Of a DNA stretch of 64,000 bases, positions 8,953 through 49,986 are shown one piece after another (the first letter of the stretch is position 1; each line of letters begins with the position of its first letter). The stretch is from Patescibacteria group bacterium. Lineage in GTDB: Bacteria > Patescibacteriota > Gracilibacteria > BD1-5 > UBA2023. The position numbers and the translations under genes are program-made. The stretch lies in assembly GCA_049293675.1 (NCBI GenBank), contig JBAQBR010000001.1:38273-102272 (forward strand), read 5' to 3'. The notes beneath the pieces were generated by a model that was given only the letters and a program-made list of their open reading frames with translations, had not been told where the DNA came from and did not search any database.

Positions 8953-9027
8953 TGGCTCCCCAAATTGGATTCGAACCAATGACCTACCGGTTAACAGCCG
9001 GTTGCTCTACCGCTGAGCTATTGGGGA
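8953..9027 (-). tRNA. tRNA-Asn (anticodon GUU), CCA encoded
   Basis: 75-nt cloverleaf read by hand: acceptor TCCCCAA/TTGGGGA, D arm GCTC-AGCGGTA-GAGC, anticodon arm ACCGG-CTGTTAA-CCGGT, variable AGGTC, T arm ATTGG-TTCGAAT-CCAAT, discriminator G, CCA. Confidence 0.9.
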
Positions 9028-27019: not shown

Positions 27020-28912
27020 ATGATCCATACTGATATATTTCACCACACATGAGAGAATACAGGAAAAGTTGTACGCTCTCATAAGCTCCAACCAAGCGAG
27101 TGAGTAACCATATTCTGTATACTCACAGGAGAAAAAGAAAGTATTATCAGTGTTCTTGAGGATCACCTCCTTGAGTCTATATCTGGAATGGAGTGGACTA
27201 CGGACTCCATCAATCCTGATTTTACTTTTATCTCTGAGAATTTTAATCATTTTATTCAGAACATAGACGAAGAAGATCGTGCTTCTTTTGCTGTAGTATT
27301 GGCAGTACTCATAGATGACTATCTTGTGTTTTCTCATATTGGAGATACGAGCATACTTTTGGTTGAAAAAGACTGAAGCATCACGAATCTCTCAAACAAC
27401 GACATCACAAAAAAGGAGTTTCAAGCTATATCCACTGGTGAAGTACTCGAAGGTTCTCATATATATCTCTCGAGTTCTCCACTTGAGAATCGGCTCTCAG
27501 ATGACCTTATACGTGATCTCTCATCTCTGAATTCCGTAGAATGGAAGAATATCATCGGTGACGTATTCCGTAAGGAGATACAAGATACGATTCATGTTGC
27601 ACATATCTCCCATGAAGCAAGTAAAAAGGTTGAGTTCTCATGAAAAAGGAGAAAGCAATTAGATATTCTGAGAACAGGGTCTCAAGATATACTTCAGAAG
27701 CTCAATATACCAACATGGACAGCAAGCATACAAGAAAAGATATACAGTGTTTTTTTTAACAAAAAACAAGAAGTAAAATATGCATTTCTTGCTATGGGAG
27801 TGGTTCTTCTCTTCGGACTATTGTATTTCCTTTTTTCTGCACTTTTTTGAGTTGTGAGCTCACCTGAGAGAGACAGTAAAACGAAGCTCATACAAGCCCA
27901 AGAACTCATAGACAATAGTCAGAAGCTTGTAACCAACCCGACTGCATTCAATAAGACAATAGAAGAAGCAGAAAAGATACTCTTTGAACTCAGGGATAAG
28001 CGCGTCTACATGACAGATACCCAGAGCCTCCTTGGACGTATCGAAGCAATGAAAAAAGAAGTCAATGATATACAGACTATTGATATGACCAAGCTCAATG
28101 CTGTTATGTCTTACACTCCTGAACAGATCTCAGCGCTTGGAGTATTCGAGTACAACAAGAAGCTCAATCTCATAGGGACAGACTCGGCAATTCTCTGATA
28201 TACTCGAGGTGAGGCACTTCCACTCAGTAAAGGTTACCCTACAGGAGAAAAGGCAAAAGCCTTTGACTTTACTGAAGATGGAGAATATTTTATCCTTACT
28301 GAGGGGAATCGACTCCTTGGGAAGAGAGGCAATGATATTGCTTATATCACGAATAATGGAAAGAATGAATGGAGTGAATCACACATAATCAGTACTTTTA
28401 ATGGGAATGTCTATCTTGCAGGATCTGGTTGAGAGAGTGTAACTCGCTATAGACCAGGTATCAACGGTTTTTCTCAAGGAACAACCTACATAGACAATCT
28501 CTGATGAAAGATTATAGACATAGCTATTGATGGTGGTATCTATATCCTCCTTCAGGATGGGAAGATTATACGCTATATATGAGGAACAACATCCACAACC
28601 AAGTCTCTGAGCATCAACAAGGTTCCATGAGAGTACAATATTGGAAGTGAGGATGTGACACAAGTGTTTTCTCAACCAAATCTCTCATATACCTATGTTC
28701 TCAGTGGGAGGAATATATGGATATTTAGCCCTGATTCCAAGCGTTTTCAAGACGTAACAGCATGGAACTACGTAGCTCAACTCGAACTCCAGGGTACAGA
28801 AGAAGTTCGTGGCATCAACATACCTCGCGATGGTCTAGTGTACATCACCACGAACAACCATGTATATGAGCTTCCATTTGAAGTTGCTGATGGAAAGATT
28901 ATTTTACGATAA
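27020..28912 (+). CDS. Single-pass membrane protein: N-terminal PP2C-like segment, TM, C-terminal beta-propeller-like domain (630 aa)
   Basis: Fragments 27188..27376, 27854..28198 and 28655..28912 share a frame and the gaps were checked. The first ATG after the upstream TAA is 27020. …FAVVLAVLIDDYLVFSHIGDTSILLVEKD-G weakly resembles the PP2C/SpoIIE core. TM YAFLAMGVVLLFGLLYFLFSALF. Repeated …G.IY.L..DG.I… strands in the C-terminal half. Confidence 0.65.
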
Positions 28913-28924
28913 CTCCCTTATTCA

Positions 28925-29503
28925 TTGTTCAAGACTGAAGGCATCATCCTCTCTATAGATACAGTTCGAGACAATAATACTCGGGTTATTTTTCTCAGCA
29001 AAGAATACGGAAAGATATCATCTTGGTACAAAAAGAAACAATTTCTTCATGATATAGGGGATATTGTATTCATAACTCTTGAGAGACAAGGTGCTATCAA
29101 TACTATCAAATATACAGAGAGTATCATGTCTCCAAGAGAAGAAGCATGGAGTTATGAGAAGATCTCTACATTTCTAGAGAGTCTTGCCCTCATGAATACA
29201 CTCATTCCTGAGATGTCGCCATATATGAATATATTCAAAGACTACAAGGGACTCCTGGCGCATATGCAAGAATCAACGAGCCTCCATACACACCACTACT
29301 TATTGTTCCAGTTTCGAGTATTGAGAACCCTTTGATATATTGGCTCAGAGAGCTTCGAGAGCTCACCTATTCCCCTCTATATATTCAACAACATACTCAA
29401 GACGCCGCTCACGAAACTCCTCTCAGCCAAAACACTGAAAGATGAAGATGCAAAGAAAATAAAACTCGCAAACCGCGAAGCGGTATATAGAAGTATCCTC
29501 TAG
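28925..29503 (+). CDS. RecO-like DNA repair protein (short form)
   Basis: TTG-start ORF 28925..29335 continues through TGA to TAG 29501-29503. N-terminus MFKTEGIILSIDTVRDNNTRVIFLSKEYGKI resembles the RecO OB-fold start. The rest is weakly conserved, so the call is tentative. Confidence 0.45.
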
Positions 29504-29518
29504 AATCTTACACAAAAC

Positions 29519-30499
29519 ATGACACTATACTATTTCATACTTTTCATACTGTGACTTTGCTTTTGAAGTTTTAGTACAGTACTCATATCTCGATGGTATA
29601 GTGGACAAGGTGGCATCATGATGTGACGCAGCGAGTGTCCCCATTGCCAACATATACTTACCGCACGTGAGCTTGTTCCACTATTCTCATGGATATTCCA
29701 GTGAGGCAAGTGTGCCAATTGTCATACCCGTATACCCGCATATTACCCACTCTCTGAGATATTCATGGGATGATTATTTGTCTGGTCATGATGGATATCC
29801 CTCAGATTCGGCTATACCTGGGAAGATATGATGTGGTGGGTATTTTTATTTTGGACATTCGTAACGGCAATCTATGTGATATACGATATTCGGTATATGG
29901 AGATACCCGACCAGATAGTCGTCCCTGGGATTATCATAACACTTGGACTCATTCTTGGTGGACTTATCTCCGAAGAATATAATGTATTTTTTGATTATTC
30001 ATCATATGATACTTTTCATACTTTTCTAACCGATCATATAGCTTCTGCAATATTTCTCTATTCATTCTTTTTTCTTCAGATACTGATACCATGAGCGATA
30101 TTCCTCTACAAACAAAGACTCTACACAAAAATACTTGAACTCATTCTCAGTTATTTTACGTTTCCTATTACCTTAATTATTGATTTTTTCCGAAGGAGAG
30201 AACATAAGGAGGAACAAAAAGACATAGACATAGAAATACCAACCTGGATAGGATGAGGGGATCTTAGGATAGCATTCTTTATAGGACTCACACTCTGAGG
30301 TATACACTCTATCACAACACTTATCTTTGCATATGTAATCGGGAGTATTGTATGAGTCAGTATGCTCATACATGGTAGATTCCACAAGAGACAAAACTCT
30401 CATGAGATTGCTTTTTGACCCTTTCTGGGTATAGGCTGGATTCTTTCTTTGACATTTTATTCAGAGATATTAGATTATGTAAATATATTTTATCTATAG
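29519..30499 (+). CDS. pilD: Prepilin peptidase (A24 family, PilD-like)
   Basis: Translated by hand with 14 TGA. N-terminal Cys motif CPHCQH…CANCHT. Aspartyl-protease motifs …IG-G-GDLRI (Gly as TGA at 30254-30256) and AF-G-PFLGIG. Polytopic. Ends TAG 30497-30499. Confidence 0.85.
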
Positions 30500-30568
30500 T
30501 GTCAATAAAAATATCTCGACTTATCAGAGAAAAAACCTATAATCAGGAGCATCCTTATACACATACTT

Positions 30569-31102
30569 ATGTCTGAAGAAAATAAAATCAAGGCCCTTCG
30601 AGACCTCATAAATACAGCACAATCATCTATCAATAGTGCCAAAAAGATATTGAACTCACTTTTGTGAGAAGAATGAGCTTCCGACGACTTTCCAATGGAT
30701 ACAACGTGACTCTCTCAATACGAGTCAGACGGTCTTCAGATTATCGAGTGAGTATTTACTGGGGAATGAATGCTCTGAACCGATGGAAATATGTATCCAG
30801 TACCTCAGAACTACGCATCAAAATCACTCCTCGTTCAAGGAAGTAAGCTCAAGGCAACTATCGACCAGAGTGGTCGCATCAAGTATAAGATTATTTCTGA
30901 GATACCATTTACTACACTTGTTGGTATCATCACCAAAAATGGAGAAAAATATCAGATAGCCACCGAACATAAAGCCTACAACGTACTCGTTGCTGCAATC
31001 ACATTTCATAAGTGTGAGATTGGCGACACTGTAAGTATCCGTGTTCCCGAGTGAAAAGACGCGACCTATGCAGTCATAGAATCAATTATACCGAAAAAAT
31101 AA
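30569..31102 (+). CDS. Hypothetical cytoplasmic protein (177 aa)
   Basis: ATG 30569 to TAA 31100-31102 with 7 TGA. N-terminal helix, then …MYPVPQNYASKSLLVQGSKLKATIDQSGRIKYK… suggests an OB/S1-like beta segment. No family assigned. Confidence 0.6.
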
Positions 31103-31124
31103 TTCCTTATCTCCCTTTTCTCCT

Positions 31125-32510
31125 ATGCGAAGTACATCATATAACCGTAGCGCACGACCAAGTTCCAATCTCCCATGGTGATGGATTGGTATAGTATGAG
31201 GCATCATTGCACTTCTGATTATCGTAAGGATTTTTTCATCTTCTGACACAGAAGCCTCTGAACAATATCTCAGTGTTACTCCAGGTGAGCAGAGCTCAGT
31301 ATACATATCTATGACGACTTCTAGCAAGAGTCGCATCACTTCAGAACAAAAACTCTTTGCGACGGATAAGTCTGTCTCCGTAGAGCTCGGGAATGCTATG
31401 GCAAAAAATGAGTTCATGACAATAGATATAGATAAAGGTTCTGAACTCGCATACAAATCTAGTACTGCAAGTGGCAACACCATCAATCTCTCAAAAGGTC
31501 GTAGCTGGTTAAGTGATATAACAAAACCCCTTCAGATAGAGCTCAAGAACTACAACGTAACAGCGCCTGTAGGGAGCACTATCCTTATAGAACAAAATGG
31601 TCCATATAGCAATGTATATGTACTGCAAGGTGTAGCTACTATAGAGACCTCTGTTGGCAACAAGGATATATCTGCTGGATCTATGATCTCACTCTTGAAG
31701 TCAGATCTCATCAATCCGAACACAGATCTCTCGGAATGGATACGTCCAATTGAGTGATCTATTCTTGAATATCCACTTTTTGTACGCAACAATGGTGCAT
31801 CTCTCCTTGATCAAGCTGGCATCAGTGTGAACACTTGAACTGGTAGTACCTCCACTGATGGACAATCTGGTTCACTTATAGAGTCAACAGCATCGAACTA
31901 CATAGAGATTACTGAGCCAAAACCCGGCATCATGACACGAACAAACACAATCACTGTTATGGGAAATCTTCTCTCAAAAGAAGTAAAGAAAGTAACTATC
32001 AACAATGTTGAAGCCGTAGTGAGTCCTGTAAATGAAACATTTGTTCTCCAAAATATAAGTGTAACAACTGAGATATTCGACATAGTATACAAGGCATACG
32101 ATGCAAATAATTCCCTTCTCCAGACTGGAGTCATCAGTATTTTCTGAGCAAAATGAGCAACTCAAGGGAATGGACCACTCGTTCCAGAAACTTTCCCAGT
32201 ATCAGCAAAAGATTTTAAGATATTGACTCCATCAGGAAATCCATACAGTACAACTGATAGGATGGTGCGCGTAGAGTGAACAATTCCAGCTAATACAGTA
32301 GACTATATTCTCGTGAATGACTATCGTCTACAGCAATTCAGGGCCAAGTCGAGTAGTTGGTATTATTTTGCAAATATGGACTACGGTACTATGAAAGATG
32401 GACTCAATCTCTATACTATCAAGTTCTATCGTGCAGACAATACTCTCCTCTACTCTCAGCCATTTACCATCATAAAAGAATCAAAAAATGCTACAGTTTC
32501 AGGTGAATAA
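31125..32510 (+). CDS. N-terminally anchored extracytoplasmic protein (461 aa, hypothetical)
   Basis: Fragments 31311..31757, 31932..32147 and 32313..32510 are colinear. Start ATG 31125. TM WGWIGIVGGIIALLIIV. Beta-rich extracellular part. Confidence 0.7.
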
Positions 32511-33135
32511 AAATACATCCGGGAAACGATGAGCAACGATGATCGAACTCATGGCCATGCTTGCTATTGTAGGCCTTGGACTTTGATCTATGTTTTCTGT
32601 GATTACTTCTGGTATATACTTTGCCAAAGACACCGAAGATACTATACGAGCTATCAACTTGGCACGAGAAGGCATAGAGTGAGTTACCAATATCCGTAAT
32701 ACCAATTGGCTACGATTCTCTTCAGATAGACAGAATTGCTGGAATTCAAGTAACTATGATGCCTTTTGTATATGAAACGCTGTCTCATGAGACCGTCTGG
32801 GGGCATGACGATATACGCTCTACACAACCAATGGACTCTGGTATCTCTCATGAAGTACTGTTATAGACCCTGATTCTAACTGGACAGGATATGCAAGTGC
32901 ATATAGAGCCATTCAAGATAATACAAGTTTTTTTAATCAGACTGGATCAGCAACTGTTCCATGCAATACAGCAGTACAGAAAAATTGTGTATCACTTTTT
33001 ACTCGAGAGATCGTACTCACTGTTCCTGCGTATACAGGAACAATCTACGTCAAAAGCATTGTCCGCTGGAACACAAAACAACGGCACAAAGTAGAGCTAG
33101 AAACAACTCTCACTAACTGGAAGTCAAAATTCTAA
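32488..33135 (+). CDS. Type IV pilin / pseudopilin-like protein
   Basis: Class III signal: MLQFQVNKNTSGKR-G|ATMIELMAMLAIVGLG, with Glu at +5 after the predicted cleavage Gly. That Gly is TGA at 32530-32532. Alternative GTG start at 32503. Overlaps the upstream gene end. Four Cys in the globular part. Ends TAA 33133-33135. Confidence 0.7.
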
Positions 33136-33192
33136 ATATTTGCCATAAATAAAATATTATGATAAAGTAGGTTCAATTCCTACTTTTTTTAT

Positions 33193-34704
33193 ATGTTTTA
33201 TTCTCATATCCGACAGCACTGGCTCGAATATGCACTCATGGGTGTATGGCTCTGTAATTGTATCATCGCGAGTGTGATAGCTATTCGTGAGGTCTGGGTG
33301 CCATCTATGAGTGCTGGAGCTGATAGTTACGCACATATCCGTAGTGCTCCTTTTGATGGTACAGTTATGCCTATCACATATATTCCTGACTGGACAAAAA
33401 CCACAAATCAAGATAAGTCAAAGCAATTCGAAGAGATATCTATATCAGACTATATTCCCCTCCCCACCTATGATGCGACAACACTCATCAAGGACCTACA
33501 AAATACAAGTAAAATATCTACAATCCTCCACTATACATATACAGTTCCTTATATGGGGAGTTATAATTTTAACTATAAGGAACATGATGGGAGCCATCTT
33601 GGGATAGATATACGCGCGCCTATAGGTACTCCTGTACTCTCGATTGCCAATGGTGTCGTTGTACGAACTGTTGAGGCAGACTCTACGGGGAACAAGTTCG
33701 TAGTAATCAGACATGACGAGGTACCAGTGAATGGTAAAAAAGTCTCACTCTATTCGGGATACCTCCACCTATCACAGATAACTGCAACAGAGTGAACTCG
33801 TATCAAAAAATGAGAAATGCTTGGACGAGTAGGTATGACAGGAATAACTACAACTCCACATCTTCACTTTCAGATAGATACCGCTGAAGCTCCGTTTCAT
33901 CCATATTGGCCGTTCACAAGTGCTGATTCGCGCAATGCAGGACTTGGATTCTTTGAATCAGTAAATGCAGGACTTGGAAAGGAAAATGCATTAAAGTACA
34001 CTATTCATCCAATGAATTTTATCAATGCAAATCTCGGATGAGCAGTATCACAAAATACCTTCGCAAGTGCACCACAACAGCCTACAACAAGCACCATAAT
34101 CAGTGAGAACATCACTGAAGAACAATCCATCAGAGAAAGAGAGATAATGCTCGGATGATATGTAAGCTCAGGAATCAAGACATGTGAGAAAAAACGATTC
34201 TCTGATGTTGGGGAAAAGACAACACTCGGAAAACTCCTCTATCCCCTCATAGACAATAAGTGTCTCTTCCAAAAGGATGGCAAATTCAACACAAAAGAAT
34301 CTATCACAAGACGTGAGGCAATAATCGCTATCATGGATTATTATGATATTGATCCAGCAAATTGAACAAGTCACTTCCTCGATGTATCTATCAGCGATGA
34401 GCTCCAGTGATATGCTGTAGTACTCTATCGTCGTGGGATTGTTGACGGGAACTATCTCTCTCCAGACAAGATACTGACAAAGGCGGAAGCAATACGCCTC
34501 ATCGTAAAAATAGGTAACATACCGAAGAATCCTGGACAAATTCGTATCTATCCAGATGTAGCAACTATGCATCCAGATTTTAGTTCGATTCAAGATTATG
34601 GATTTGCTACAAGGGTTCGTGGATGACGATTTTATCCTGATATGGTACTCAATCGTGGGACATTCGTACAGATTCTCGCGAGTCTCGCAAAAGTCACAAA
34701 ATAA
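33193..34704 (+). CDS. M23 peptidase fused to three SLH domains
   Basis: Frame checked from 33193 to TAA 34702-34704. N-terminal TM. M23 motifs HLGIDIRAPIGTPV and TTPHLHFQI. Three C-terminal repeats have SLH hallmarks: FSDV…ITRREA, FLDV…GIVDG…LTKAEA, YPDV…FYPDMVLNRGTF. Confidence 0.85.
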
Positions 34705-34768
34705 AGTGGATTTTCTCTCCTGATTCAATACACTGAACTAAAAAATATTCCTTGCCCATGACCGAACT

Positions 34769-36163
34769 ATGTCACCCAAAAAAATCATCTTTTTCATCAT
34801 AGTATGAGTTATCACTATAACACTGATTATAGGGATTTTCCTACTCCAAAAAAAGACCACAAAAGAAACGATTATCCCATGAAATATCAGAGTATGGATA
34901 TCTGAGGGCAATACTCAGTCGTATGATTCGCTTATTGAGTGATTCAAGCTCTACGCACCAGAATATGCAGACTCAACTATCACATTCGAGAAAAAAACTA
35001 CAGATCCAATTCGTTATAGAATCCTCCTCCTCTCAACTATGTCGGAAGGAACTGGCCCTGATATATTCATGGTAGGAGCAGGAACTGATGTTGTTCTCGA
35101 ATCCAAGATTGAACCAATACCAGAGAGTGTTATCAACTTTTCTAACTTTGAAAAAGAGTACGACGATGTCTTCCTTCCTCTCATTGTATCGAGTGGATCG
35201 AAGGATACATTTACTCGCTACCTTATGGGTGTTCCTCTCTGATTTGAGACGCTTGGGATTTTTTATAACAAAAATCTCGTTCGAGAAGTTCCAATAACTT
35301 GGAATGCGCTCGATGTACTCTACAGCAATGGCATATCTCCTGAGGTATTCCCAGCCAATCTCTGACTTGGGCCTCGTTATACGCAGAATGCTGCTGATAT
35401 TGTTGGATTATTCTATGGAAGGGCAGGCATGTACGATGCAACGAATCTGAGAGGAGGAGATGGAGAGTGACTTGCCTCATATCTCAGTTACAAGGATATC
35501 CGAATCGCATCAGCATGATCAGATGATGCCTTTGCTCCTATTGTTACGCTCGATGGGAAAAAAGAAGAAATGGACACAGAAAGTCTCACAACCCTAGATC
35601 TCTTCATGCAAGGAGACATCTGAATGATTTTTGGATATCCAAGCCTTGTTACTGAACTCGAAAAAAGTGATAAACGTGTAGGATTCAAAAGTAAGGCAGG
35701 AAATATCCTCACGGAGAGGATTCCTGCAGATTCACCTACAGAAGGAAGAGAGAATGCAGCAAAGTATAACTTCTTCGCACTCTCTAGAGCTACAGAAAAC
35801 CCTGCAACAGCAGTAAAATTCCTGGAGTATCTCCTGACTCCTGATGCACAAAAAAGATTCCTCCAGAATAATCCTTATCTCATTTCAGCTCAACGTTCAT
35901 TTTGGCCAGCACAGGAGAGTTCAGTATTGTCCAATATACTCAATAGAGCAACACTCGGAGCCTTTATCCCAGAGATTGACGAAGAACTCTTTGTATTTTC
36001 TTATGGACTCAAGGCAGAATTCGGGAATTTTCTCTCAGAATATATTGACAGAAATGATAATATAGATATTAATAAGATATCAGAACTGATTTCACACAAC
36101 ATATCATGCAGTATCGATACCTATAGTGGAAAAGAAACTCGTGCTGATTGTGAGAATAAATAA
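34769..36163 (+). CDS. Extracellular solute-binding-protein-like protein (orphan, no adjacent permease)
   Basis: First ATG after an in-frame TAA, and the gaps were checked. N-terminal TM anchor. …IRVWISEGNTQSYDSLIEGFK…GTGPDIFMVGAG… is typical of family-1 SBPs. Ends TAA 36161-36163. Confidence 0.6.
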
Positions 36164-36219
36164 TCAAAAATTGCTTTTTTCCTTTTGATATGATACGATT
36201 GACTGTATATACCTTATCT

Positions 36220-39200
36220 ATGCGTACACTCTACTCACTTCTCATCCTCGTTATAGGATTCATCGGATTCTTTACCATCGCAGATGGTGTGACTTTCGCA
36301 GCAGACAAATGTTGGTTCCCCTTTAGTGACGGAACATGCTGAACTACAGAGCCACCATACTGTGCTGATGGAAAGTGTACACTTCAAGGCGGACTCAATG
36401 CCGCGGGAACAGCTGTGGACTGACAAGTAACAAATCTACCTATTTCAGTGTTCGTCGTCGATATTGTTCAGTACCTCCTCACATTCGTAACCCTGATTGC
36501 TGTCATATATGTTATCTATGCATGATTCCAGGTGATGACGGGAGCATGAGACGAAGAGAAAAGCAAAAAAGCAAAAAATATCATCCTCTACGTTGTAGTT
36601 GGTATCGTCATCATGTGGCTTGCATATGCCCTTGTGAACTGGGTAGTCACCGCAGTGTGAAGAACAGTCTCAACGGATTCTTGAGGAAAATACACATGGT
36701 CACTCGTTCCAGAAGTATCGGCAGCTTATAGTGAAAGTGATGTCGATACTTTTCGAGAGTACCAGAACAAACTTCGGATAGCGATACAGGATCTCGAGAG
36801 TGAACTCAAGATCAATAAGTCAGTAAGTACTGCTAATATTCAGAACATCAAAAACCTAGTACAGGGAGCATACGATCGCCTTCCTGATTTTGGTGATGCA
36901 GGTACACAGAACGACACCATGAAGCGCGGAGTAGACAGAGATCTTGATATAGCCATGAAAAATCCTGGATCTACGAGCCAAGTTGGAAATGCTATCTCTA
37001 GTGTTTCTGCTTTTATCTCTAGTGCCAAGATCGAGACCGTTGAATGAAGTATCAATGCTTCACCGGGAGAGTGAAATGCTCCAGTTACAGTATCGTTCCA
37101 AGCAACAGGAATCAAAGATCCTTCTGGTGCTACTCCAGATAATATGAGTTATATCTGGTGGATGCGAGAAAACGGTGGCGTACGTCGTGAACTCGGAAGA
37201 GGAAAATCCCTTGTCTATACATTTTCCCAAGAGTGAAGCTATACAGTGTTTCTCGATGTTATCTCTGGAAGTCGTAATAGTAAAAAAAAGATTGATGTCC
37301 TCCCACTGAGTACATCAAAGACTATCGATGTAAAACCACGCCTTGGAGAAATAGTACTCCTGGTTAATGGGGTCAACGCAAGCAATCTCCAAACACTGAA
37401 AATCAATCCAACCATCGGAAAAATGTGAGTCATCCTCGATGCTACAGCATCACGAGCCACAGGGGGCAATATCACAGAAACCACATGGGATTTTGCTAAT
37501 AACAACACTATTACGTATCGTTGAGTACCTATTGTTGAACGACAGATTTTTGCAAATTCATGAGACTACAATATTCGTCTCACGCTCAAGACGAACAATG
37601 GACAGACCTTTACCAAGGAGCTCCGCCTCATCGTACGCAATCCAGCTGCCGTAATCCAATGAGAAAAACTTACAGGAAATATCGGTGATGACATGTATTT
37701 TTCTTCGATATCATACTTTACAAATGCAAACAACGTAGAGTACTCTTGGCAGATACAAGATGACAATAACAAAAAAATAGTTAACAACCTCCCTGGAAGT
37801 ACACTCAAGTACCGATTCGATACAATAGGAACATATATAGTCACCCTCACTGCTCGTAGTCCAAATGGTGAAGTAGATACTGATTCACGACAGATAACTA
37901 TCGAGTCTCGATCACCAGTAGTCAACCTCGACAATCCGAAGCCACTCTCAACTGAGAGTCCCAATGTCTTGGAATTTGACGCGTCAAAAAGTTATGATCC
38001 TGACACAATGGGTCGTAAATGACTCACCTATACATGGAGAATAGATGGAGAAAAAATCAATCTCGATAATGTAGCAAACAATGGCGCAAAATGAACTCTT
38101 GTATTTAATTCAGTATGACCTCATACCGTATCACTTACGGTAGCAAATGCATACGGAAAAGTCACTACTGTAGAGCGCCAATTCGAAGTGCAATCGATTC
38201 TTTCAGCCAATCTCCTCATCACTCCACGCGTTGCTCCTCTTGGAACTATTATTAATTTTATAGCCCAATCAGAGAATGCAGACTTCTTTGAGTGGAATAT
38301 GGGAGACGGCTCCCCTATCAAGACAGGAAACAAGAAAATCATCCAACATATATACCAGAAAACTGGAGTATACGAGGTAACTCTTACTGTATCGAGCGCA
38401 AAGTGAAGTGAATCCAATCAGATCAAGAGACGTGTATATGTCACTGATACGAATAGCCCATTTTCTATGATCAGTGTGAACAATGCTTCCAGCACTGCAT
38501 ACTATGATTCTGAGGCATGTGGAGGAAGCGGGGCAACTGTCATCAATAGGTCAGAAGTAACCAATTTCGATGGTTCAAAATCTATCAACATAGATGGTGG
38601 AACCGCTGATCTTACGTATACATGGAGTTATTTTGGAAAAGTAAAAACTACATCTACCCTCTCAGAGAAGCTCTCAGAAATCTGATGCTATCCTGTCAAG
38701 CTTACCGTACGTAGCAACAAAAATGGTGCAACTCATGCATCAACAGAATATATCTCAATCAAGAATATCCCCCCTGAGCTCACGAGTATATCTACAAGTA
38801 TCGACTCTAGTAAGCAAGACAGTCAAAAAGTACTTGTTCGTGTAAATGCAAATGGAGCAATAGATCCTGACGGAGTGATCACTTCATATATCTGGTATTA
38901 TACAACCGAATCCGATCGAGAACCACAGAACATCCAGATTACACAGAATCCAGAGATTACTTTTGTTCTTCCAAACATCACAGAGAAGTATTATTTTGGT
39001 GTGATCCTCGAAGATAATGACGGTGCAAAGGCAAATAGCATGAACGACGGAAGTGAGCAAGTTCCACTGATTCTCGACAATCAGAACGGGAATATCTATA
39101 TGCCACTTATTAGCCTCACGATGCCCAAGAATGCAGTTCTCGTAGGAGAAAATGTGTTTATGTCTGTCGATGCTAAAACAATAGTCTGAACTGTTGTTAC

Positions 39201-41430
39201 GAAGAATGCGGAATATGCCTGGGATTTTGATGGAGATGGTCGCTTCGACGAGCGCTCAACCAATCCATCAGTGAACCATACGTTCAAGAACTCTGGTACA
39301 TACCAGATAAAAGTACGTGTCACTCATAATGGTGTATCAAATACGAAGTATGCAACTATCTATGTAAAAAATCCACTGAAGGCCAATGCTGTCGGTTATA
39401 CACTCGCTGACGGAAGTATCTACTTCATGAATACTAGTGAATGACTCTATGATAGAGCTATATGGACGGTGAATGGAGAACAGACAGAATCACCATACAC
39501 ATTCACGATTCCTCGAGCACAACTCAGTACGCTCTCAGGAGAAGATATTGGAACACTCAGAGTCTCCAATGGTGAGACAGATACATCGAGTTTCACCCTG
39601 TCACGCAAGGATCTCATGCAGATCGCATCATGAACAGGTATTGCATATCAGACATCACCACAAGCCATAGATGATACGATCCATATCAAGTGACAGTCAG
39701 ATAGACTTATTATCTCACTTCTAGGCAACACTACTGCAACATCCTATGCTATCGATGTAGATACTCGTATTGATAGTGATCTTGATGGTATTCCAGACAA
39801 TGATATCGACAACAAGAATCACACTTCCTATACAGATGGTAGCACCTATGTTATCAGTGATTTTGTAGAGTCTCGAATTAGAGAGCGTACCGTGAAGGTA
39901 ACTCTTCTTTCCAATGGGACCATGATAGGAACCAAAGATATTCGAGTTATTCTTGATTTTCTTCCTGAGGCACAGTCAGGGTCTGGAGAAGACTTCTTGC
40001 TTGGTGCATCTGGTTCTATGAGTACATTCGATAGAGAAAAACTCGAAGAGCTTGCAACAATGATACGATCTACAGAGAGTACAGATCGTGTTATCCTCAT
40101 GCAAGAGTACAATACCATGATAGAGAACTGGGGTGACTCATTCTCAAAGGCAAAGTCTCTGATAGATATACAAGAACTCGTCAATACAAGCACTCTCACA
40201 GAAGATAAAAAAATTGCTATCAGTAAAATCATCGACGCACTCCTTGTCGGAGATTCCGCGAGTATCGACGAAGTGACTCTTGCAACCAAGCTCATCCAAG
40301 ATCTCATACCTGCAACGAGTGCCAACCGAGAGACTATTATCGAGAAACTCAACGCTATCTCTTCTCATCCAAGCGATATCGCCAAGAATCGAGACCTCTG
40401 AAAGGAGATACTAGAACTCATCAAAAATGATCCAACCATCGAAGATAAGTACAAGATACACATCAAGAATCAACTCCTCATCATCATCAACGGTGGTCAG
40501 GCAAGTGTCCCAGCTGATGCGGTAGAAGAATCTGGCTCTACTAGCACTATCCTAGGATTTATATCAGGAGTCGTGTGGGTATTCCTCTATATACTCTGAG
40601 GTATACTTCTTGTTCTCCTTATTTGATATGTATTCTACCTTATTGGACGAAAAAATGATGATATTGGATTTCAGGACTTTCTCATTGATTCAGTGTTTCA
40701 TGCAAGAAAATCACCAAATACTACAGAATCAGGAACAACCGACACATCGAATATCATCGTAACACAGGCTCCTGTAGTCGCAGAGAAGTCTCCCATCATA
40801 CAGGTAGACCCTCTTGCGAGCTATACACCTCCTGTGATTGTAACAGCACCCCTCGAGGCTACCCATAACTGACTCGAATCAGCTCCGACTGAGACAGAAT
40901 CATCTACCAATATCCCTGCATGGCTCCAGATACCAAAAACTGAAACAGTATCTGATACTAAAACCGAAACTCCAGGAGTAGAACCAATAGTTACAGAGGA
41001 AGTATCTACACCTACTTGGCTCCAGGTAGACTCTAACGATGGGGATACATCTTCAGTAATAGTCCCCGAGACATTAGAGGACACCCCTGCTGCCCCAGCA
41101 AGTGAATCTACTGTCCCTGATTGGCTCCAAGCAACAGAAGAGGCTATCGCACCTACAGATACTCCTCCAACAGAATCAATAGTCACAGAAGAGGTATCAT
41201 CTCCTGAGACAACCAGAGAAGAGATAACAACTTCCAATGATCTCCCTGATTGGCTCGTAGACTCATTGAAGTCTTCCGAAGAAACCAAGGAAAGTGATAC
41301 ATGAACGACGACACCAACAGAAAAAACTGAAACCCAGCCAGCCAAGAAAAAGGCAACAAAGACAAAAAAGAGTACTACAGCAAAAGATACACCTCCTGCC
41401 TCTGGAGATATCCCTGAATGGCTCAAGTAA
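36220..41430 (+). CDS. Giant surface protein: VirB2/TrbC-like two-TM module + PKD-domain array + C-terminal TM and PxWL-repeat tail (1,736 aa)
   Basis: Every codon from 36220 to TAA 41428-41430 was checked: no TAA/TAG, many TGA. An alternative ATG is at 36190. N-terminus: signal, Cys-rich loop, then IVQYLLTFVTLIAVIYVIYAGFQVMTGAGDEEKSKKAKNIILYVVVGIVIMWLAYALVNWV. At least 8 PKD-like units (for example FEWNMGDGSP…GVYEVTLTV, YAWDFDGDGRFD…GTYQIKVRV) lie at ~37100-39400. TM at ~40555-40650. The acidic tail carries five P-x-W-L motifs. Confidence 0.85.
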
Positions 41431-41523: not shown

Positions 41524-43845
41524 ATGACACAAGAAAAACCACAATCCGAAGAGAAGACTTCTCTCCTCTCAGATATCATCAAAGCATCTCAGGCATCAGG
41601 CAACGAACAGGCTGTACCTCCAGTCACAGAGGTAAGTTCACCATCGAACAATCCAGCTGAGATACCAGTATCTTCAGGAAGCAATACTCCACCACTTCCC
41701 CCTACGCCCAAGAAGCCAAGAGAACCACTTCCACCAGGTACAATATTGAAAGCAATTGGTGCACTTTTTTTTACGGGAATTATATTTTTTGCGAGTTTTC
41801 TTGCGTATATAGTATTCAATCCTGGTGAAGCCCAATTCTTCATCACAATGTTCGGTATAGATACCAAGGATGTTGCCACACTTCTTCGAAAGTTCATCAA
41901 TGGAAGTTTTGGTATTATCATGCTTGTATTCTCTATCCTCTGGATTATCACACTCTTCCGAGCTATCTGGACGCCTCGAGAACAAAAAAGAAAAAAGATA
42001 CTCGCATGGATGACAGCCGCTCTCATTGGTATACTCCTTTTTTCTATACTCACATTCTGGATATACCTCTTCAAAAAAATCGGAGAAATTGTATGGGATG
42101 GTGGAGTTATCGGTGTCTATGATAACGTACTCTATGGCAATCCAATATCAACGGGTGACTCTGCTATCAGGAGCACTAAGAACATGATATGACCTATCCA
42201 GCTACGATACGATATCCGTGGCAATGCTCGATCTTATGAAGCCAATGGTATCACAGTAGAGCGCTACGAGATCAACTTCGATGGTGCAAGTTGTGGAGAT
42301 GGGAGGAGTATCGTCTCGGGTACCAATCCAAAAGAAGAACAATGAATTGTTTGTGATTTTAATCAAATAAGGAACTACAATATACGCTGATCTTACTTTG
42401 CTACCGACGTCAACTGAGAGAGCAAAGAGATACCTATAGAGCTCGATGCTGTAGAGATACGCGGACTCGTAGATGTCAGAGAGCAGAAAAACAGTCTTGG
42501 AAGAGATATTATAACGCTCGATGCCAGCAAGCTAACACTCCTTGGTGATCCTCGTTGGGTCTATGAGAGCACCGGAAAAGAAGAGAAAAATCCAACCATC
42601 ACCCTAGAACCAAGTGAGACTCCTACTTTTATATTTTTAAAAGTATTCTGAGAGTCTCCTGATAGGATATTCCTCGTACAGAAGCGTGGAGCCTGACAGT
42701 GAGATGAGACAATAGAAGCTGTCCAGTCAACGCTCGATGGACGAGAATACACCATGACGCTCACAGGAATCACGGCAGATAGCAATACTATACTTGGAAT
42801 CGAGTGGACAGTGAATGATGGTATCGTCATATGCCGATGATCGAGAGATGTCTGTCAGTACAACTTCTGAAATTATGGTCAGCAGAGTGTCAATGCTCGT
42901 ATCGCCTTTGCTGATAGGAGCTACCGCGATATCAAAAAAGATATCAACGTAGAGAAGCCACTCCAGCTCATCAGACATGTCATCGTAACGGGAAGTGATG
43001 GCAAGAGACTCAATCCTGACTCAAGTTATGACGGAGTACTCAATAGCTATCTCATCGATAGTATCATCCCCCCTGACAAGATTACTGTTGATGCGCGTGA
43101 TGTGGTACCAGAGAATCCAGGATACGAGCTCAAGGAGGTTCGTTGGGTTCTTGCTGATGGACGCAACAGTATAGAGAAGATTGGGGACAGAGTAACTTTT
43201 GATATCCTCAATACCTACCGATACACTATCGTGGGAACATATACTTTTGAGAAAAATATTCCTGGAAGTGCTACAGAGATAAAGAAAGCTACTGATAACA
43301 TTACGGTTGATGTGGAGCGAAAGATACTCATTCCACGACTTTCTGTCATCCAGAATAGTGACTATGTTCCTGCAAGTATAACAGTTGACGCATCTCAGTC
43401 ATGGTCAGAGAATAACGAGATTATCAAGTTCATCTACAACTTTGGTGAAGGTCGAGCTGATGCTGTCGGTGATGCTATACAGACATACACATATACCACT
43501 CCAGGAGAAAAAGAAATAATCCTTACGATTATCGATGACTCAGGAGAAAAAGCTCAAATCAAAAAGACACTCGTACTCAAAGAATCTCCGAGAACACTTG
43601 GATTTATACCGAGTATATCACCTGGTATTATCTGAGTTCCAGTGGACTTCTCAGTGACAGATGAGAGTGGACAGGTTGAGATGTATACATGGAGCTTCTG
43701 AGACAATACTCCAACTCAGCGAGGCATATCAGTGACACATGTATTCGCCAAGGGATGAGAGTACCAGGTCACACTCACGGCAACCTATGCTGATGGTACC
43801 CAACGACAAGCAGTATCTACATATCTCGTTAATTCTGGTGAATAA
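41524..43845 (+). CDS. Polytopic membrane protein with extracellular PKD-like domains (773 aa)
   Basis: Fragments 41524..42192 and 43102..43635 are colinear and lines 42181-43800 were checked. Pro-rich N-terminus, 4 TM helices, Ig/PKD-like repeats, and a terminal PKD signature YTWSF-G-DNTP…HVFAKG-G-EYQVTLTATYADG. Ends TAA 43843-43845. Confidence 0.8.
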
Positions 43846-48447: not shown

Positions 48448-48892
48448 TGGTGGAGATGGCGAGCACTGCCCTCGCGTCGAAAAAGGTACACCGGATGCAT
48501 CTACTCTCTGTAGTTCGATTTTGATATATTGTAGAATAGAAAATGAACAAAAAGCTCTACAATAATACGTTTTCTAGTATTCAGTACCTATGAATTACAT
48601 ATGTTAAGTTCGGACTGAAACTTGTAAGTAAAACAATTCTCTACAAGCTTTGAGAATCGAGTTGTGTAGCAGGCCAGCCGGCACTCATCCTAATATAGGA
48701 GGCTACATTCTTGAGTGATTAGACAGCAAGAATTATGCAAATACACGAGCTGCAGGCATGAAGCTAGCAAGACGAGTAAGTGCAGAAGTTGTAGATTTTG
48801 CATCTATTGTGTGTCATTTGATAACGAGGCTGACCGCCCCGAGAGAGCACATACGACATACGATTCTTTTCCTCGAATCCTATATCATCCCC
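48448..48892 (-). ncRNA. ssrA: tmRNA (SsrA)
   Basis: 5' end GGGGAUGAUAUAGGAUUCGAGG and 3' end …GCGAG-GGCAGUG-CUCGC-CAUCUCC-A-CCA form a 7-bp acceptor stem with the G3:U pair. GGGGCGGUCAGCCUCG precedes AAUAGAU-GCA, which matches the E. coli resume context AAUAGUC-GCA. The tag ORF runs from GCA 48801 down to UAA 48735-48733 and encodes AKSTTSALTRLASFMPAARVFA. Confidence 0.85.
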
Positions 48893-49248
48893 AAGTATGT
48901 TAAAGAACGCTAATATAGTAGTGAGAAAGCTCGAAAAAGCAACTCCACTCACCCACTTTTCACACAATCATATTTTCTCCTTTCAAAGCTTCTGGAACGA
49001 GTTTTTAGAATCTGTCAGTGAGTATTTCCGTTAAAAATTGCAACCGTATCTGAATTTTAATCTCTCTAATATTCTATTGTTTTATTTTGTGCCTTACTTT
49101 GCTTCTTTATTTTTGTGAATTTTGATATTCTGTCGACGTAGTTTTCGTAAAAATTCCGAATGTTCCTTAGTTTGGAATTTTAGAAAACAAGTCGAGAACA
49201 GAATGCAAAACGAACAAAGGAAAAAGAAGGACTTTTGGTACTTTTAGT

Positions 49249-49303
49249 CATAAAAGTACGGAAGAAAAAAGGGATTCCTACGGAACGACAAAAAAACCAA
49301 AAA
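49249..49303 (+). repeat. Intergenic ~50-nt element, copy B
   Basis: CATAAAAGTACGGAAGAAAAAAGGGATTCCTACGGAACGACAAAAAAACCAAAAA. Same layout as copy A: mini-hairpin TTCC-TAC-GGAA followed by GACAAAAAAACCAAAAA. Confidence 0.55.
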
Positions 49304-49348
49304 CACAAAAACCTCCCTCAAGTGGCGAATCCAAACGCCAGAGGGAGG
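49287..49348 (-). terminator. Rho-independent terminator of the minus-strand gene 49368..49829
   Basis: Outer stem CCTCCCTC (49312-49319) / GAGGGAGG (49341-49348) and inner stem TGGCG / CGCCA. On the minus strand it is followed by a long T-rich run (the complement of 49287-49311). Confidence 0.6.
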
Positions 49349-49367
49349 AACACGGATGAGGGCGAGA

Positions 49368-49829
49368 TTATCGTGAATGCAGTGTTGCGAGTACGGTCTT
49401 GGCTGTTGGAGATGCGAGATCTCATTCGATAACAGCGATACCATTCGGGAGGCGTGAGTAGGCACGAGGTGTATCTTCTCCGTGGTACTTCTGTATATCA
49501 TCGATGGTTGCTTGAGAATAAAAAGATACTCTCACTCAATCACTATCATACACTATACCACTTGCTGAGCGGATATCCACCTTGTCATCTACTTCTGTAG
49601 ATACCTGATTGTACGTATCTCCTGAACCAGTGTTGAATCCGTATCCGAGTTCATCATTCCAATAAGAACGACTCACAGGGGTTGTATTCGTAGGTTCTGC
49701 GAGTGTCGTCTCATATGAGTCAAAATATGGCATAGACATATAGATTCATACAAGTACCATCAGGGTAAAAACCGCCTGGAGCCACTCGACACCATATTTA
49801 CGATGTCTCTGGTACTGAGGATGTTTCAT
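49368..49829 (-). CDS. Small N-terminally anchored protein (hypothetical, 153 aa)
   Basis: Track ORF 49536..49739 extended upstream to ATG 49829 (MKHPQYQRHRKYGVEWLQAVFTLMVLVGIYM, a basic segment plus a TM). It also extends downstream through two TGA to TAA 49368-49370, 20 nt before the terminator hairpin. Confidence 0.55.
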
Positions 49830-49986
49830 ATACCTTTACAAAAAGAACAAAATAATTATAGCTCATATTTTCATGAATGTCAATAATTTTTCAATACTTT
49901 TATGAAGTGTCAAATATATAGCGTGAAATATATTCGATTTTTCGTAGTTTTTCTGTATATTGAGGCACATATTAAGCAAATCAACT

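What the first reader, a model, noticed from the sequence alone, without database searches (positions are those of the whole stretch)
36220..41430. Fusion of a VirB2/TrbC-type pilin-like hairpin to a PKD array
After a signal peptide and a Cys-rich loop, residues ~70-145 (nt ~36430-36660) form two hydrophobic helices. These flank a short charged loop, …VIYVIYAGFQVMTGAGDEEKSKKAKNIILYVVVGIVIMWLAYALVNWV…, which is the layout of VirB2/TrbC-type conjugative pilins. In those systems the module is a free ~100-aa subunit. Here it is covalently followed by about 1,500 aa holding at least 8 PKD/Ig-like domains, another TM helix (~40555-40650) and a tail. Either the pilin-like module is a membrane anchor reused for display, or the protein is processed into a pilin plus an adhesin.
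Basis: partly seen in the sequence, partly recalled or inferred. Interest (0 to 1): 0.65.

Follow-up and report, generated by a model that had tools for sequence, protein, structure and literature searches.

The report
Pilin fused to giant PKD adhesin
In a Gracilibacteria-type genome that reads UGA as glycine, one 1,736-residue gene joins a small VirB2-like (type IV secretion) pilin to a giant PKD-repeat surface protein, and because relatives encode the same two parts as adjacent separate genes, the two almost certainly work together and are probably cut apart after membrane insertion.

Summary
Window 36220-41430 (+) is one ORF of 1,736 codons, but only if UGA is a sense codon: 27 in-frame TGA, ending in TAA, genetic code 25 (Gracilibacteria).

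Residues 83-142 match Pfam T4SS_pilin (PF18895) above its curated cut-off, and match TrbC/VirB2 at borderline scores. After them come a disordered junction, a four-helix bundle, 7 PKD domains plus further Ig-like domains, a helical domain, a third TM helix and an acidic tail. The predicted topology puts the PKD array outside the cell.

The fusion is conserved in more than 40 protein clusters from Gracilibacteria and JAEDAM01 assemblies. One sub-clade has it split. There, a free 150-167-aa pilin gene sits directly upstream of a ~1,650-aa PKD gene, which has its own signal peptide ending AxA|YTES, in the same syntenic locus. The fused proteins keep "WS(L/I)(I/V)P...AxA|YTES" in the disordered junction. 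I therefore favour cleavage of the precursor into pilin plus type-I membrane adhesin (about 0.55) over an uncleaved, doubly anchored protein (about 0.3).

No VirB4/VirB6 gene is in the window. The locus carries type IV pilus genes instead. Some related genomes with the fused gene also carry a VirD4-like ATPase next to a three-hairpin "polypilin".

Automated pipelines already name both parts, but my searches found no paper describing the fusion. Verdict: a new variant of a known kind.

The parts
36220..41430 (+). Whole gene: 1,736 codons with UGA read as Gly, TAA stop (alternative ATG at 36190). Precursor of a VirB2-like pilin plus a PKD surface protein.
36220..36300 (+). Sec-type signal peptide (residues 1-27, ...GVTFA|AD)
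   Evidence: Hydropathy. Helix 2-21 in the AlphaFold2 model of P0021. Aligned with the signal peptides of the free pilins.
36301..36444 (+). Extracellular Cys-rich loop (4 Cys), conserved in the free pilins as well
   Evidence: C40, C48 and C53 nearly invariant or invariant
36445..36660 (+). Pilin module: TM1 (about 76-103), charged loop TGAGDEEKSKKAKN, TM2 (about 120-147). The Pfam T4SS_pilin match covers residues 83-142.
   Evidence: It is the only such module in the window.
36661..36729 (+). Junction (residues 148-170): variable and predicted disordered, ending in the conserved island YTWSLVPEVSAA|YSES. This is a candidate signal-peptidase-I-type cleavage site (Ser at -3, Ala at -1, Pro at -6).
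36730..37035 (+). Four-helix bundle (residues 171 to about 272). In split orthologues this is the mature N-terminus of the PKD protein.
   Evidence: pLDDT 85-93. Only generic helical-bundle matches. Split forms.
37045..39864 (+). Array of 7 PKD domains plus 1-3 further PKD-like/Ig-like domains, extracellular
39865..40545 (+). Membrane-proximal Ig/cadherin-like domain with a DxDxDGxxDxD loop, then an all-helical domain of about 8 helices
   Evidence: no significant PDB analogue for the helical part
40546..40647 (+). Third TM helix (residues about 1443-1476)
40648..41427 (+). Cytoplasmic tail. It starts with the conserved juxtamembrane motif RKxxDIGFQDFLIDSVFH. The rest is an acidic T/E/P-rich region with five P-x-W-L motifs (nt 40915, 41011, 41116, 41245, 41413), and the protein ends ...IPEWLK.
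41524..43845 (+). Conserved downstream partner: 773-aa membrane protein (3 TM) with C-terminal PKD domains. A roughly 770-aa equivalent lies directly downstream of the PKD gene in all four related loci inspected.
27020..36163 (+). Conserved upstream block, in the same order in relatives: 630-aa membrane protein, small ORF, A24 prepilin peptidase (29519-30499), two proteins without family matches, type-IV-pilin-like protein (32488-33135), M23 peptidase with SLH (33193-34704), solute-binding protein (34769-36163).

Best explanation
The gene encodes a precursor that covalently joins two proteins which relatives make from adjacent genes. One is a Patescibacteria-type VirB2-like pilin: signal peptide, disulfide loop and a two-helix membrane hairpin. 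The other is a ~1,570-residue type-I membrane surface protein: four-helix bundle, PKD/Ig array, helical stalk, TM anchor and a cytoplasmic tail with repeated (I/L)PDWL motifs.

Shown: the open reading frame under code 25, the pilin-family match, the conservation of the fusion, the split orthologues in the same synteny, and the conserved AxA|YTES island in a predicted disordered junction.

Inferred: the N-terminal signal peptide and TM1/TM2 insert through Sec/YidC, so the loop faces the cytoplasm and everything after TM2 is exported. A signal-peptidase-I-type enzyme then cuts after the retained Ala-x-Ala. This releases a ~140-aa pilin and a PKD protein whose new N-terminus (YSES...) equals the mature N-terminus of the split forms. 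The PKD protein stays anchored by TM3 and acts as a host- or prey-binding adhesin. The pilin acts next to it in the membrane or in a short filament. A fusion enforces 1:1 production, so this pilin is more likely a specialised partner of the adhesin than the bulk subunit of a long pilus.

My sub-probabilities: real fused gene with a VirB2-like module 0.9; PKD array extracellular 0.85; cleavage at the junction 0.55.
For: ORF and code.

Pilin family: PF18895 at 30.9/36.3 bits against a cut-off of 26.6, and TrbC at 26.1/29.1 against 27.9. 21 of 22 and 13 of 22 homologues match these two families. A profile built from the free pilins retrieves 55,561 relatives.

Conservation: about 65 clusters of 1,600-1,930 aa at 38-98% identity, most carrying PF18895 plus PKD. 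JGI names some 'PKD repeat protein/type IV secretory pathway VirB2 component (pilin)'.

Split forms: four loci have a 150-167-aa pilin gene ending in TAA or TAG, 22-235 nt upstream of the called start of a 1,557-1,674-aa PKD gene; re-reading the 235-nt case gives an earlier start. The flanking genes match the window. Their PKD proteins start with a classical signal peptide ending AxA|YTES.

Fused forms: Ala at -1 in 34 of 46, an AxA or small-x-small motif within 0-3 residues of YTES in most of the rest, and Pro at -4 to -9 in 40 of 46. This island sits inside an otherwise variable stretch that AlphaFold2 leaves disordered, pLDDT below 50.

Distribution among GTDB species representatives: 23 fused, 9 split, 18 other free pilins, 15 polypilins. 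Fused forms also occur in the JAEDAM01-type clade, for example CG2_30_37_12.

Topology.

Precedent, from my own knowledge and not tested here: RP4 TrbC pilin is trimmed at its C-terminus, after the second helix, by the LepB-like peptidase TraF.
Against: There is no experimental evidence of cleavage. The candidate site lies about 20 residues beyond the end of TM2 and has only a short hydrophobic stretch (WSLVP) before it. Canonical signal-peptidase sites lie 3-7 residues after the h-region. The conserved island could instead be a structural or binding element. No signal peptidase gene is in the window. No T4SS ATPase or VirB6 is in the window or in the syntenic loci, so a role as a secretion-system pilin is not supported by context. 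The TM-rich hairpin also gives spurious Bac_rhodopsin matches at similar E-values in 8 of 22 homologues. Neither a sequence search nor a fold search of the PDB retrieved a solved VirB2/TraA pilin.
Confidence: 0.55

Rival explanations
1. The protein is not cleaved. The pilin-like hairpin has been co-opted as an N-terminal membrane anchor, so the PKD ectodomain is tethered at both ends (hairpin and TM3) and lies as an arch or loop on the cell surface. Alternatively the hairpin oligomerises in the membrane to cluster the adhesin.
For: The fusion is the majority state and is old: 23 fused against 9 split species representatives, and it is also present in the JAEDAM01-type clade. The spacing between TM2 and AxA is long for signal peptidase I, and no full h-region precedes the site. 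Elsewhere in Patescibacteria-type sequences, T4SS_pilin modules occur as multi-hairpin single proteins, so hairpins can exist as parts of larger membrane proteins.
Against: Split orthologues function with the PKD protein anchored only at its C-terminus and with a free N-terminus starting YTES. N-terminal tethering is therefore not required. The AxA/Pro island is conserved in a disordered linker where an anchor model predicts no constraint. AlphaFold2 finds no packing of the hairpin against the bundle (pTM 0.38).
Confidence: 0.3
2. The N-terminal hairpin is not a pilin homologue at all. It is a generic two-helix membrane hairpin whose profile matches come from hydrophobic composition.
For: Bac_rhodopsin, DUF4184 and other TM families also score at E of 0.003 to 1e-7. 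There are no PDB pilin hits by sequence or fold. TrbC is only borderline. There is no T4SS context.
Against: PF18895 is the top hit and passes its curated cut-off, covering profile positions 12/13-71 of 71 in the window protein and in 21 of 22 homologues. The closest relatives of the module are free 150-aa proteins that pipelines call T4SS pilins. A paralogous module lies next to a VirD4-like ATPase in genomes that also carry the fused gene. The signature YAGFQ...GDEEK.KKAK...Y is shared with the wider family of more than 10,000 representatives at E<1e-10.
Confidence: 0.08
3. Artefact: two genes falsely joined by reading through a real stop, by mis-assembly or by a recent frameshift, or a pseudogene.
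For: The ORF exists only if UGA is read as sense. Split versions exist in nature.
Against: No stop of any kind, TGA included, lies in the junction (residues 148-170); the nearest TGA codons are at residues 147 and 155, one of them inside that range but aligned to Gly-tolerant positions. The same uninterrupted fusion occurs in dozens of independent assemblies at 38-98% identity. UGA=Gly is supported by conserved Gly columns and by window-wide ORF statistics.
Confidence: 0.02

Closest known systems
VirB2-like pilins of the Patescibacteria T4SS (Pfam PF18895; essential pilin array of Ca. Southlakia epibionticum; survey in PMC12102498, PMC10633639, PMC12857230)
   Same: Same Pfam family. Same layout: signal peptide, variable outer loop, two hydrophobic helices, short charged loop. 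Monoderm, host-dependent bacteria.
   Different: Those are small free proteins, often in arrays and often next to virB4 (1,135 of 1,948 assemblies per PMC12102498). Here the module is the N-terminus of a 1,736-aa protein, in a locus with type IV pilus genes and no T4SS ATPase. That survey reports that no adhesins such as PrgB were detected, and my term searches of it found no description of this fusion.
TrbC (RP4) and VirB2 (Ti plasmid) propilin maturation (established knowledge, not tested here)
   Same: Propilins with an N-terminal leader removed by signal peptidase I. TrbC also loses a C-terminal extension after the second helix, the last step by TraF, a LepB-like peptidase. This is a precedent for cutting just downstream of TM2.
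   Different: The extension removed there is about 30 residues and is discarded. Here it would be a functional 1,570-residue adhesin. Cyclisation is not implied here. Membership in PF04956 is only borderline.
Two-domain pilus adhesins such as FimH of chaperone-usher pili (analogy only)
   Same: A pilin-type module covalently joined to a binding module, coupling filament machinery to adhesion.
   Different: Unrelated folds and assembly pathway. FimH has no membrane anchors. Here the adhesin carries its own TM helix and cytoplasmic tail, which argues against extrusion on a filament.
Giant PKD/Ig-repeat surface proteins of predatory CPR bacteria (Vampirococcus lugosii, PMC8080830)
   Same: Very large membrane-anchored proteins with PKD and other adhesion domains in UGA=Gly lineages, proposed to bind the host or prey.
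   Different: Where that paper mentions PKD, pilin or giant proteins, it lists domains only and says nothing of a pilin module or a pilin/PKD gene pair.
Pam pili of CPR bacteria (bioRxiv 10.64898/2026.03.03.709456)
   Same: CPR-specific surface filament system with Ig-like domains.
   Different: Donor-strand-exchange Ig-like pilins in Saccharimonadia and Microgenomatia. The only link here is a far sub-threshold PamR hit on a PKD domain, 23.5 bits against a cut-off of 300. Not related.

Membership tests
Pfam PF18895 T4SS_pilin (Patescibacteria/monoderm VirB2-like pilins) | Profile match above the curated gathering score | tested here: met
   30.9 bits (full protein) and 36.3 bits (first 200 aa) against 26.6, covering profile positions 12/13-71 of 71. 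21 of 22 fused homologues match.
Pfam PF18895 T4SS_pilin (Patescibacteria/monoderm VirB2-like pilins) | Sec signal peptide followed by two hydrophobic helices joined by a short charged loop | tested here: met
   Hydropathy and charge. AlphaFold2 helices 77-109 and 114-149 in homologue P0021.
Pfam PF18895 T4SS_pilin (Patescibacteria/monoderm VirB2-like pilins) | Small free-standing subunit (about 100-170 aa) | tested here: not met
   In the window the module is the first 150 aa of a 1,736-aa protein. It is free in split orthologues.
Pfam PF18895 T4SS_pilin (Patescibacteria/monoderm VirB2-like pilins) | Encoded with T4SS genes (VirB4, VirB6, VirB3/PrgI, TrsD) | tested here: not met
   No such family among the 29 window proteins scanned or among the called genes of the four syntenic loci. 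A paralogous three-hairpin pilin lies next to a VirD4-like ATPase in a genome that also has the fused gene.
Pfam PF18895 T4SS_pilin (Patescibacteria/monoderm VirB2-like pilins) | Polymerises into an extracellular filament | not testable with these tools
   Needs microscopy or biochemistry.
Pfam PF04956 TrbC/VirB2 (conjugative pilins of diderm T4SS) | Profile match above the gathering score | tested here: inconclusive
   26.1 bits (full protein, below 27.9) and 29.1 bits (first 200 aa, above). 13 of 22 homologues match at E<1e-3, but a spurious Bac_rhodopsin hit appears in 8 of 22.
Pfam PF04956 TrbC/VirB2 (conjugative pilins of diderm T4SS) | Detectable similarity to solved VirB2/TraA/TrbC pilin structures | tested here: not met
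   A profile search of PDB sequences found only chance GPCR hits. Foldseek of the model found no hit with E<0.001 and no pilin among the 50 matches listed. A helical hairpin is a weak query, so this says little.
Pfam PF04956 TrbC/VirB2 (conjugative pilins of diderm T4SS) | C-terminal trimming or cyclisation by a TraF/LepB-like peptidase | not testable with these tools
   A conserved AxA site after TM2 is present. No S26 peptidase motif is in the window.
PKD-domain cell-surface adhesins | Tandem PKD domains | tested here: met
   PKD_4 165.5 bits in 7 stretches, PKD 145 bits. 7 repeats found by a self-built HMM.
PKD-domain cell-surface adhesins | Array exposed outside the cell | tested here: met
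   Prediction only. An even number of TM passes before the array, a basic loop between TM1 and TM2, acidic residues before TM3 and RK after it.
Type IV pilins (class III signal peptide, prepilin-peptidase substrates) | N-terminal G|(F/M)xxxE motif followed by a single hydrophobic helix | tested here: not met
   The N-terminus is a Sec-type signal peptide with TFA|A and no Gly/Glu5 motif (sequence). The neighbouring gene at 32488-33135 does have ...KRG|ATMIEL.
Pam pilus system of CPR (NCBIfam NF058578 PamR) | Profile match above the cut-off | tested here: not met
   23.5 bits against a cut-off of 300, on a PKD domain.

The most novel reading that the evidence does not exclude
Gracilibacteria make a bacterial polyprotein. 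A single Sec-inserted precursor is cut at an internal, retained signal-peptidase site into a T4SS-type pilin and a giant PKD adhesin in strict 1:1 ratio. The pilin hairpin is then not the bulk subunit of a conjugative-type pilus. It is a dedicated membrane partner, or filament-nucleating partner, of the adhesin within a host-attachment apparatus encoded alongside type IV pilus genes. The adhesin's cytoplasmic (I/L)PDWL repeats would couple that apparatus to an unknown intracellular factor. Together with the multi-hairpin 'polypilins' seen elsewhere, this would mean that Patescibacteria-type bacteria have diversified VirB2-like modules into roles outside classical type IV secretion.
Probability: 0.4. 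Interest if true: 0.75.

Novelty: new variant of a known kind. Interest (0 to 1): 0.6.

Why it matters
VirB2-type pilins are textbook small free subunits. Patescibacteria are the only monoderms reported to carry them, and in Saccharibacteria they are essential for epibiotic growth (PMC10633639, PMC12857230). What they do there is unknown.

A conserved covalent and syntenic link between such a pilin and a giant PKD surface protein gives a concrete, testable partner for one of these pilins. It also offers a candidate for the adhesin that the 2025 survey of Patescibacteria T4SS did not find (PMC12102498). And it places this pilin in a cell-surface locus that also carries type IV pilus genes, not in a T4SS cluster.

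The natural split and fused pairs define exactly where to look for a processing site. The invariant C-terminal IPDWLK and the repeated PDWL motifs mark a likely cytoplasmic docking signal. The finding is limited to one lineage and rests on prediction, so its interest is moderate to good, not exceptional.

Tried and rejected
1. Table-11 ORF calling shows only fragments. I abandoned it in favour of code 25.

I used returned homologues instead: the free-pilin alignment A2, and P0021 as first row for the models.

3. A PDB sequence search with the pilin profile gave only chance GPCR hits.

4. Foldseek of the N-terminal model against the PDB gave nothing with E<0.001. The best matches were generic four-helix bundles (FAT domain), and no pilin was listed.

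5. Foldseek of the membrane-proximal region gave Ig/cadherin-like hits for the beta domain and nothing significant for the helical domain.

6. I looked for VirB4, VirB6 and a signal peptidase in the window. Pfam on 29 proteins and a motif scan found none.

7. All four split loci first inspected had the PKD gene in the +1 frame, which hinted at frameshifting. With more loci the frames were 0, +1 and +2, and each PKD gene has its own Met and signal peptide. I rejected the idea.

8. The NCBIfam hit to the CPR Pam pilus protein PamR led me to the 2026 preprint. That system is unrelated and the score is far below the cut-off.

9. A literature search for the PDWL tail motif found nothing relevant.

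10. The stored supplement of PMC12102498 is truncated. It showed only that CG1_02_38_174 and CG2_30_37_12 are classed JAEDAM01, not their T4SS gene lists.

Full report
**The sequence.** With the standard bacterial code, the interval 36220-41430 holds only short ORFs on either strand. Translating frame 1 of the + strand gives 1,737 codons with 27 internal stops. Every one is TGA, and the frame ends in TAA. If TGA is sense, the longest open frame in the window rises from 444 to 1,756 codons. The TGA codons fall on columns that are Gly in homologues, such as YA-G-FQ and GA-G-DEEK. Homologues called with code 4 carry Trp there. The window therefore comes from a UGA=Gly (code 25) organism. The nearest public relatives are labelled Candidatus Gracilibacteria or Peribacteria MAGs.

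**Anatomy.**
- Residues 1-27: Sec signal peptide (TFA|A).
- 28-75: loop with four conserved Cys.
- 76-103 and 120-147: two hydrophobic helices joined by TGAGDEEKSKKAKN.
- 148-170: a variable stretch ending in YTWSLVPEVSAA.
- 171 to about 272: four-helix bundle, modelled at pLDDT 85-93 in the 70%-identical homologue P0021.
- About 275-1215: seven clear PKD domains plus further PKD-like/Ig-like domains.
- Next: an Ig/cadherin-like domain with a DxDxDG loop and an all-helical domain.
- 1443-1476: a third TM helix.
- 1477-1736: a 260-residue acidic tail.

The charge distribution is consistent with loop inside, array outside and tail inside. There are four Lys against three acidic residues in the hairpin loop, acidic residues before TM3, and RK after it.

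**Is the hairpin a pilin?** Pfam places residues 83-142 in T4SS_pilin (PF18895) above the curated cut-off: 30.9 and 36.3 bits against 26.6. TrbC/VirB2 (PF04956) is borderline at 26.1 and 29.1 bits against 27.9. Of 22 fused homologues, 21 match PF18895 and 13 match PF04956. Eight also match Bac_rhodopsin, which shows that hydrophobic hairpins attract some chance hits. NCBIfam gives a sub-threshold hit to the Mycoplasma ICE 'pilin-like conjugal transfer protein'. A profile built from the closest free relatives retrieves 55,561 representatives at E<1e-3 in 1.8 billion proteins. Neither a sequence search nor a fold search of the PDB returned a solved pilin. I accept membership in PF18895. This is the family used as 'VirB2-like pilin' in the 2025 survey of Patescibacteria T4SS (PMC12102498). 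I treat membership in the classical TrbC/VirB2 family as unproven.

**The fusion is conserved, and it is also found split.** A search with residues 95-1736 found about 65 clusters of 1,600-1,930 aa at 38-98% identity. Most carry PF18895 plus PKD. NCBI calls some 'PKD domain-containing protein', and JGI calls some 'PKD repeat protein/type IV secretory pathway VirB2 component (pilin)'. A search with the first 272 residues also found free 150-167-aa pilins at 46-58% identity. They have the same Cys loop and hairpin and end just after TM2.

Four of these free pilin genes were located on their contigs. Each ends in TAA or TAG and lies upstream of a 1,557-1,674-aa PKD gene, 22-235 nt before its called start. 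In the 235-nt case, re-reading the sequence gives an earlier Met start, so that gap is also short. The flanking genes appear in the same order as in the window:
- 630-640-aa membrane protein
- A24 prepilin peptidase
- 175-aa protein
- 464-aa protein
- ~215-aa type-IV-pilin-like protein
- M23 peptidase
- solute-binding protein
- [pilin][PKD]
- 770-aa TM+PKD protein
- pyrH

Among GTDB species representatives I count 23 fused, 9 split, 18 other free pilins and 15 multi-hairpin proteins. In a neighbour-joining tree of the shared region, the split forms make one clade nested among fused forms, with two fused members inside it. At least two transitions therefore occurred. Fused forms also occur in the divergent clade that includes CG2_30_37_12, which PMC12102498 assigns to class JAEDAM01. 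This is a classic Rosetta-stone relationship: the pilin and the PKD protein are functionally linked.

**Processing.** In the split forms, the PKD protein starts with a normal signal peptide whose predicted cleavage is AxA|YTES(D/E)xDTF. The mature protein therefore begins at the four-helix bundle. In the fused forms the full h-region is gone, but the stretch just before YTES is kept. The consensus is WS(L/I)(I/V)P-x-x-x-A-x-A|YTES. Ala is at -1 in 34 of 46, and in most of the rest an AxA or small-x-small motif lies one to three residues further back. A Pro lies at -4 to -9 in 40 of 46. This island sits in a linker whose other positions are not conserved and which AlphaFold2 leaves disordered, with no packing of the hairpin against the bundle (pLDDT below 50, pTM 0.38). 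A conserved linear motif that obeys the (-3,-1) rule, in a flexible segment on the outer face, at the exact point where relatives have a signal-peptidase site, is best explained as a retained cleavage site.

The caveat is geometry. The site is about 20 residues past TM2, further than in ordinary signal peptides. A precedent from my own knowledge, not tested here, is RP4 TrbC, which is trimmed after its second helix by the LepB-like TraF. I put cleavage at about 0.55 and the uncleaved, doubly anchored alternative at about 0.3.

**Context and function.** No VirB4, VirB6 or coupling-protein gene is among the 29 window proteins scanned or in the four syntenic loci inspected. The neighbours are type IV pilus and cell-wall genes. 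Five genomes that carry the fused gene (STA_21, STA_89, UBA9566 and two others) also have a second locus with a ~300-aa multi-hairpin protein. In STA_21 this protein has three pilin hairpins and lies directly downstream of a VirD4-like ATPase (T4SS-DNA_transf, 47 bits). The lineage thus has T4SS parts elsewhere.

A fusion forces equal numbers of pilin and a 1,570-residue adhesin, and the adhesin keeps its own TM anchor and tail. I therefore infer that this pilin is a dedicated partner of the adhesin and not the bulk subunit of a long filament. I also infer that the PKD protein acts as a cell-anchored binder of host or prey surfaces, in line with what was proposed for giant PKD proteins of Vampirococcus (PMC8080830).

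The tail is striking. Every full-length member has 3-8 (usually 4) (I/L)P(D/S/E)W(L/I) motifs and ends with a near-invariant (I/L)P(D/S/E/N)W(L/I/M)(K/Q/N), most often IPDWLK. A conserved DIGFQDFLIDSVFH follows TM3. These look like docking motifs for an unknown cytoplasmic factor. I found no literature on them.

**Novelty.** VirB2-like pilins in Patescibacteria are known (PMC12102498, PMC10633639, PMC12857230), and annotation pipelines already flag both domains in this family. My literature searches found no paper describing four things: the fusion itself, its split counterparts, the retained cleavage-type site, or the tail motifs. The 2025 survey states that no adhesins such as PrgB were detected. 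I rate the finding a new variant of a known kind, with interest 0.6.

Noticed in passing
whole window (1-64000): The whole window uses UGA as a sense codon (Gly, code 25). Under table 11 nearly every gene is fragmented. With TAA and TAG as the only stops, the window resolves into about 48 genes.
   Followed up: yes
window 40648-41427: The cytoplasmic tail of the PKD protein has five P-x-W-L motifs and ends IPEWLK. Every full-length family member has 3-8 (usually 4) such motifs and ends with a near-invariant (I/L)P(D/S/E/N)W(L/I/M)(K/Q/N), most often IPDWLK. A conserved DIGFQDFLIDSVFH follows the TM helix. This is probably a docking motif. No literature was found.
   Followed up: partly
L054 2788-3726 (MAG STA_21), with similar multi-hairpin genes in L051-L069; also P0090, P0094, P0126: 'Polypilins': single ORFs with 3-11 tandem T4SS_pilin hairpins. 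They dominate the top of the exhaustive search. In the STA_21 MAG (labelled Candidatus Gracilibacteria), a three-hairpin version lies directly downstream of a VirD4-like ATPase (L054 3-2711) and upstream of radA. It is unknown whether they are processed or act as polytopic proteins.
   Followed up: partly
window 41524-43845 (+): A 773-aa protein with a Pro-rich cytoplasmic N-terminus, three TM helices and C-terminal PKD domains. It lies directly downstream of the PKD gene in the window and in all four related loci inspected, so it is probably part of the same surface module.
   Followed up: partly
window 29519-30499 and 32488-33135 (+): An A24 prepilin peptidase and a type-IV-pilin-like protein (…KRG|ATMIEL…, weak PilV hit) sit in the conserved block upstream of the T4SS-type pilin fusion. 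Two different pilin types therefore share one locus.
   Followed up: partly
window 10846-16011 (-) and 16035-17393 (-): A 1,721-aa secreted protein rich in Gly, Asn and Thr, with many short degenerate repeats (…NTAIG..AL..NTTG…) and no Pfam match. It is followed by a 452-aa secreted protein that also has no match. They may be fibre or surface-layer components.
   Followed up: no
window 48448-48892 (-): Rfam detects a tmRNA gene (75.9 bits), which ARAGORN missed. The two short ORFs I had provisionally listed nearby (49180-49886) are doubtful. The only tRNA in the window is tRNA-Asn at 8953-9027 (-).
   Followed up: partly
window 55879-57162 (+): A 427-aa secreted protein that combines an SLH domain, a PKD domain and a Cys-rich C-terminal part. 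It is another PKD surface protein in the same window.
   Followed up: no
P0181, P0197: Pilin modules of the same subfamily with a different C-terminal extension: a low-complexity, W/S/N-rich stretch of 130-180 residues. The W residues are probably Gly miscalled under code 4. This suggests that other kinds of C-terminal fusions to this pilin exist.
   Followed up: no
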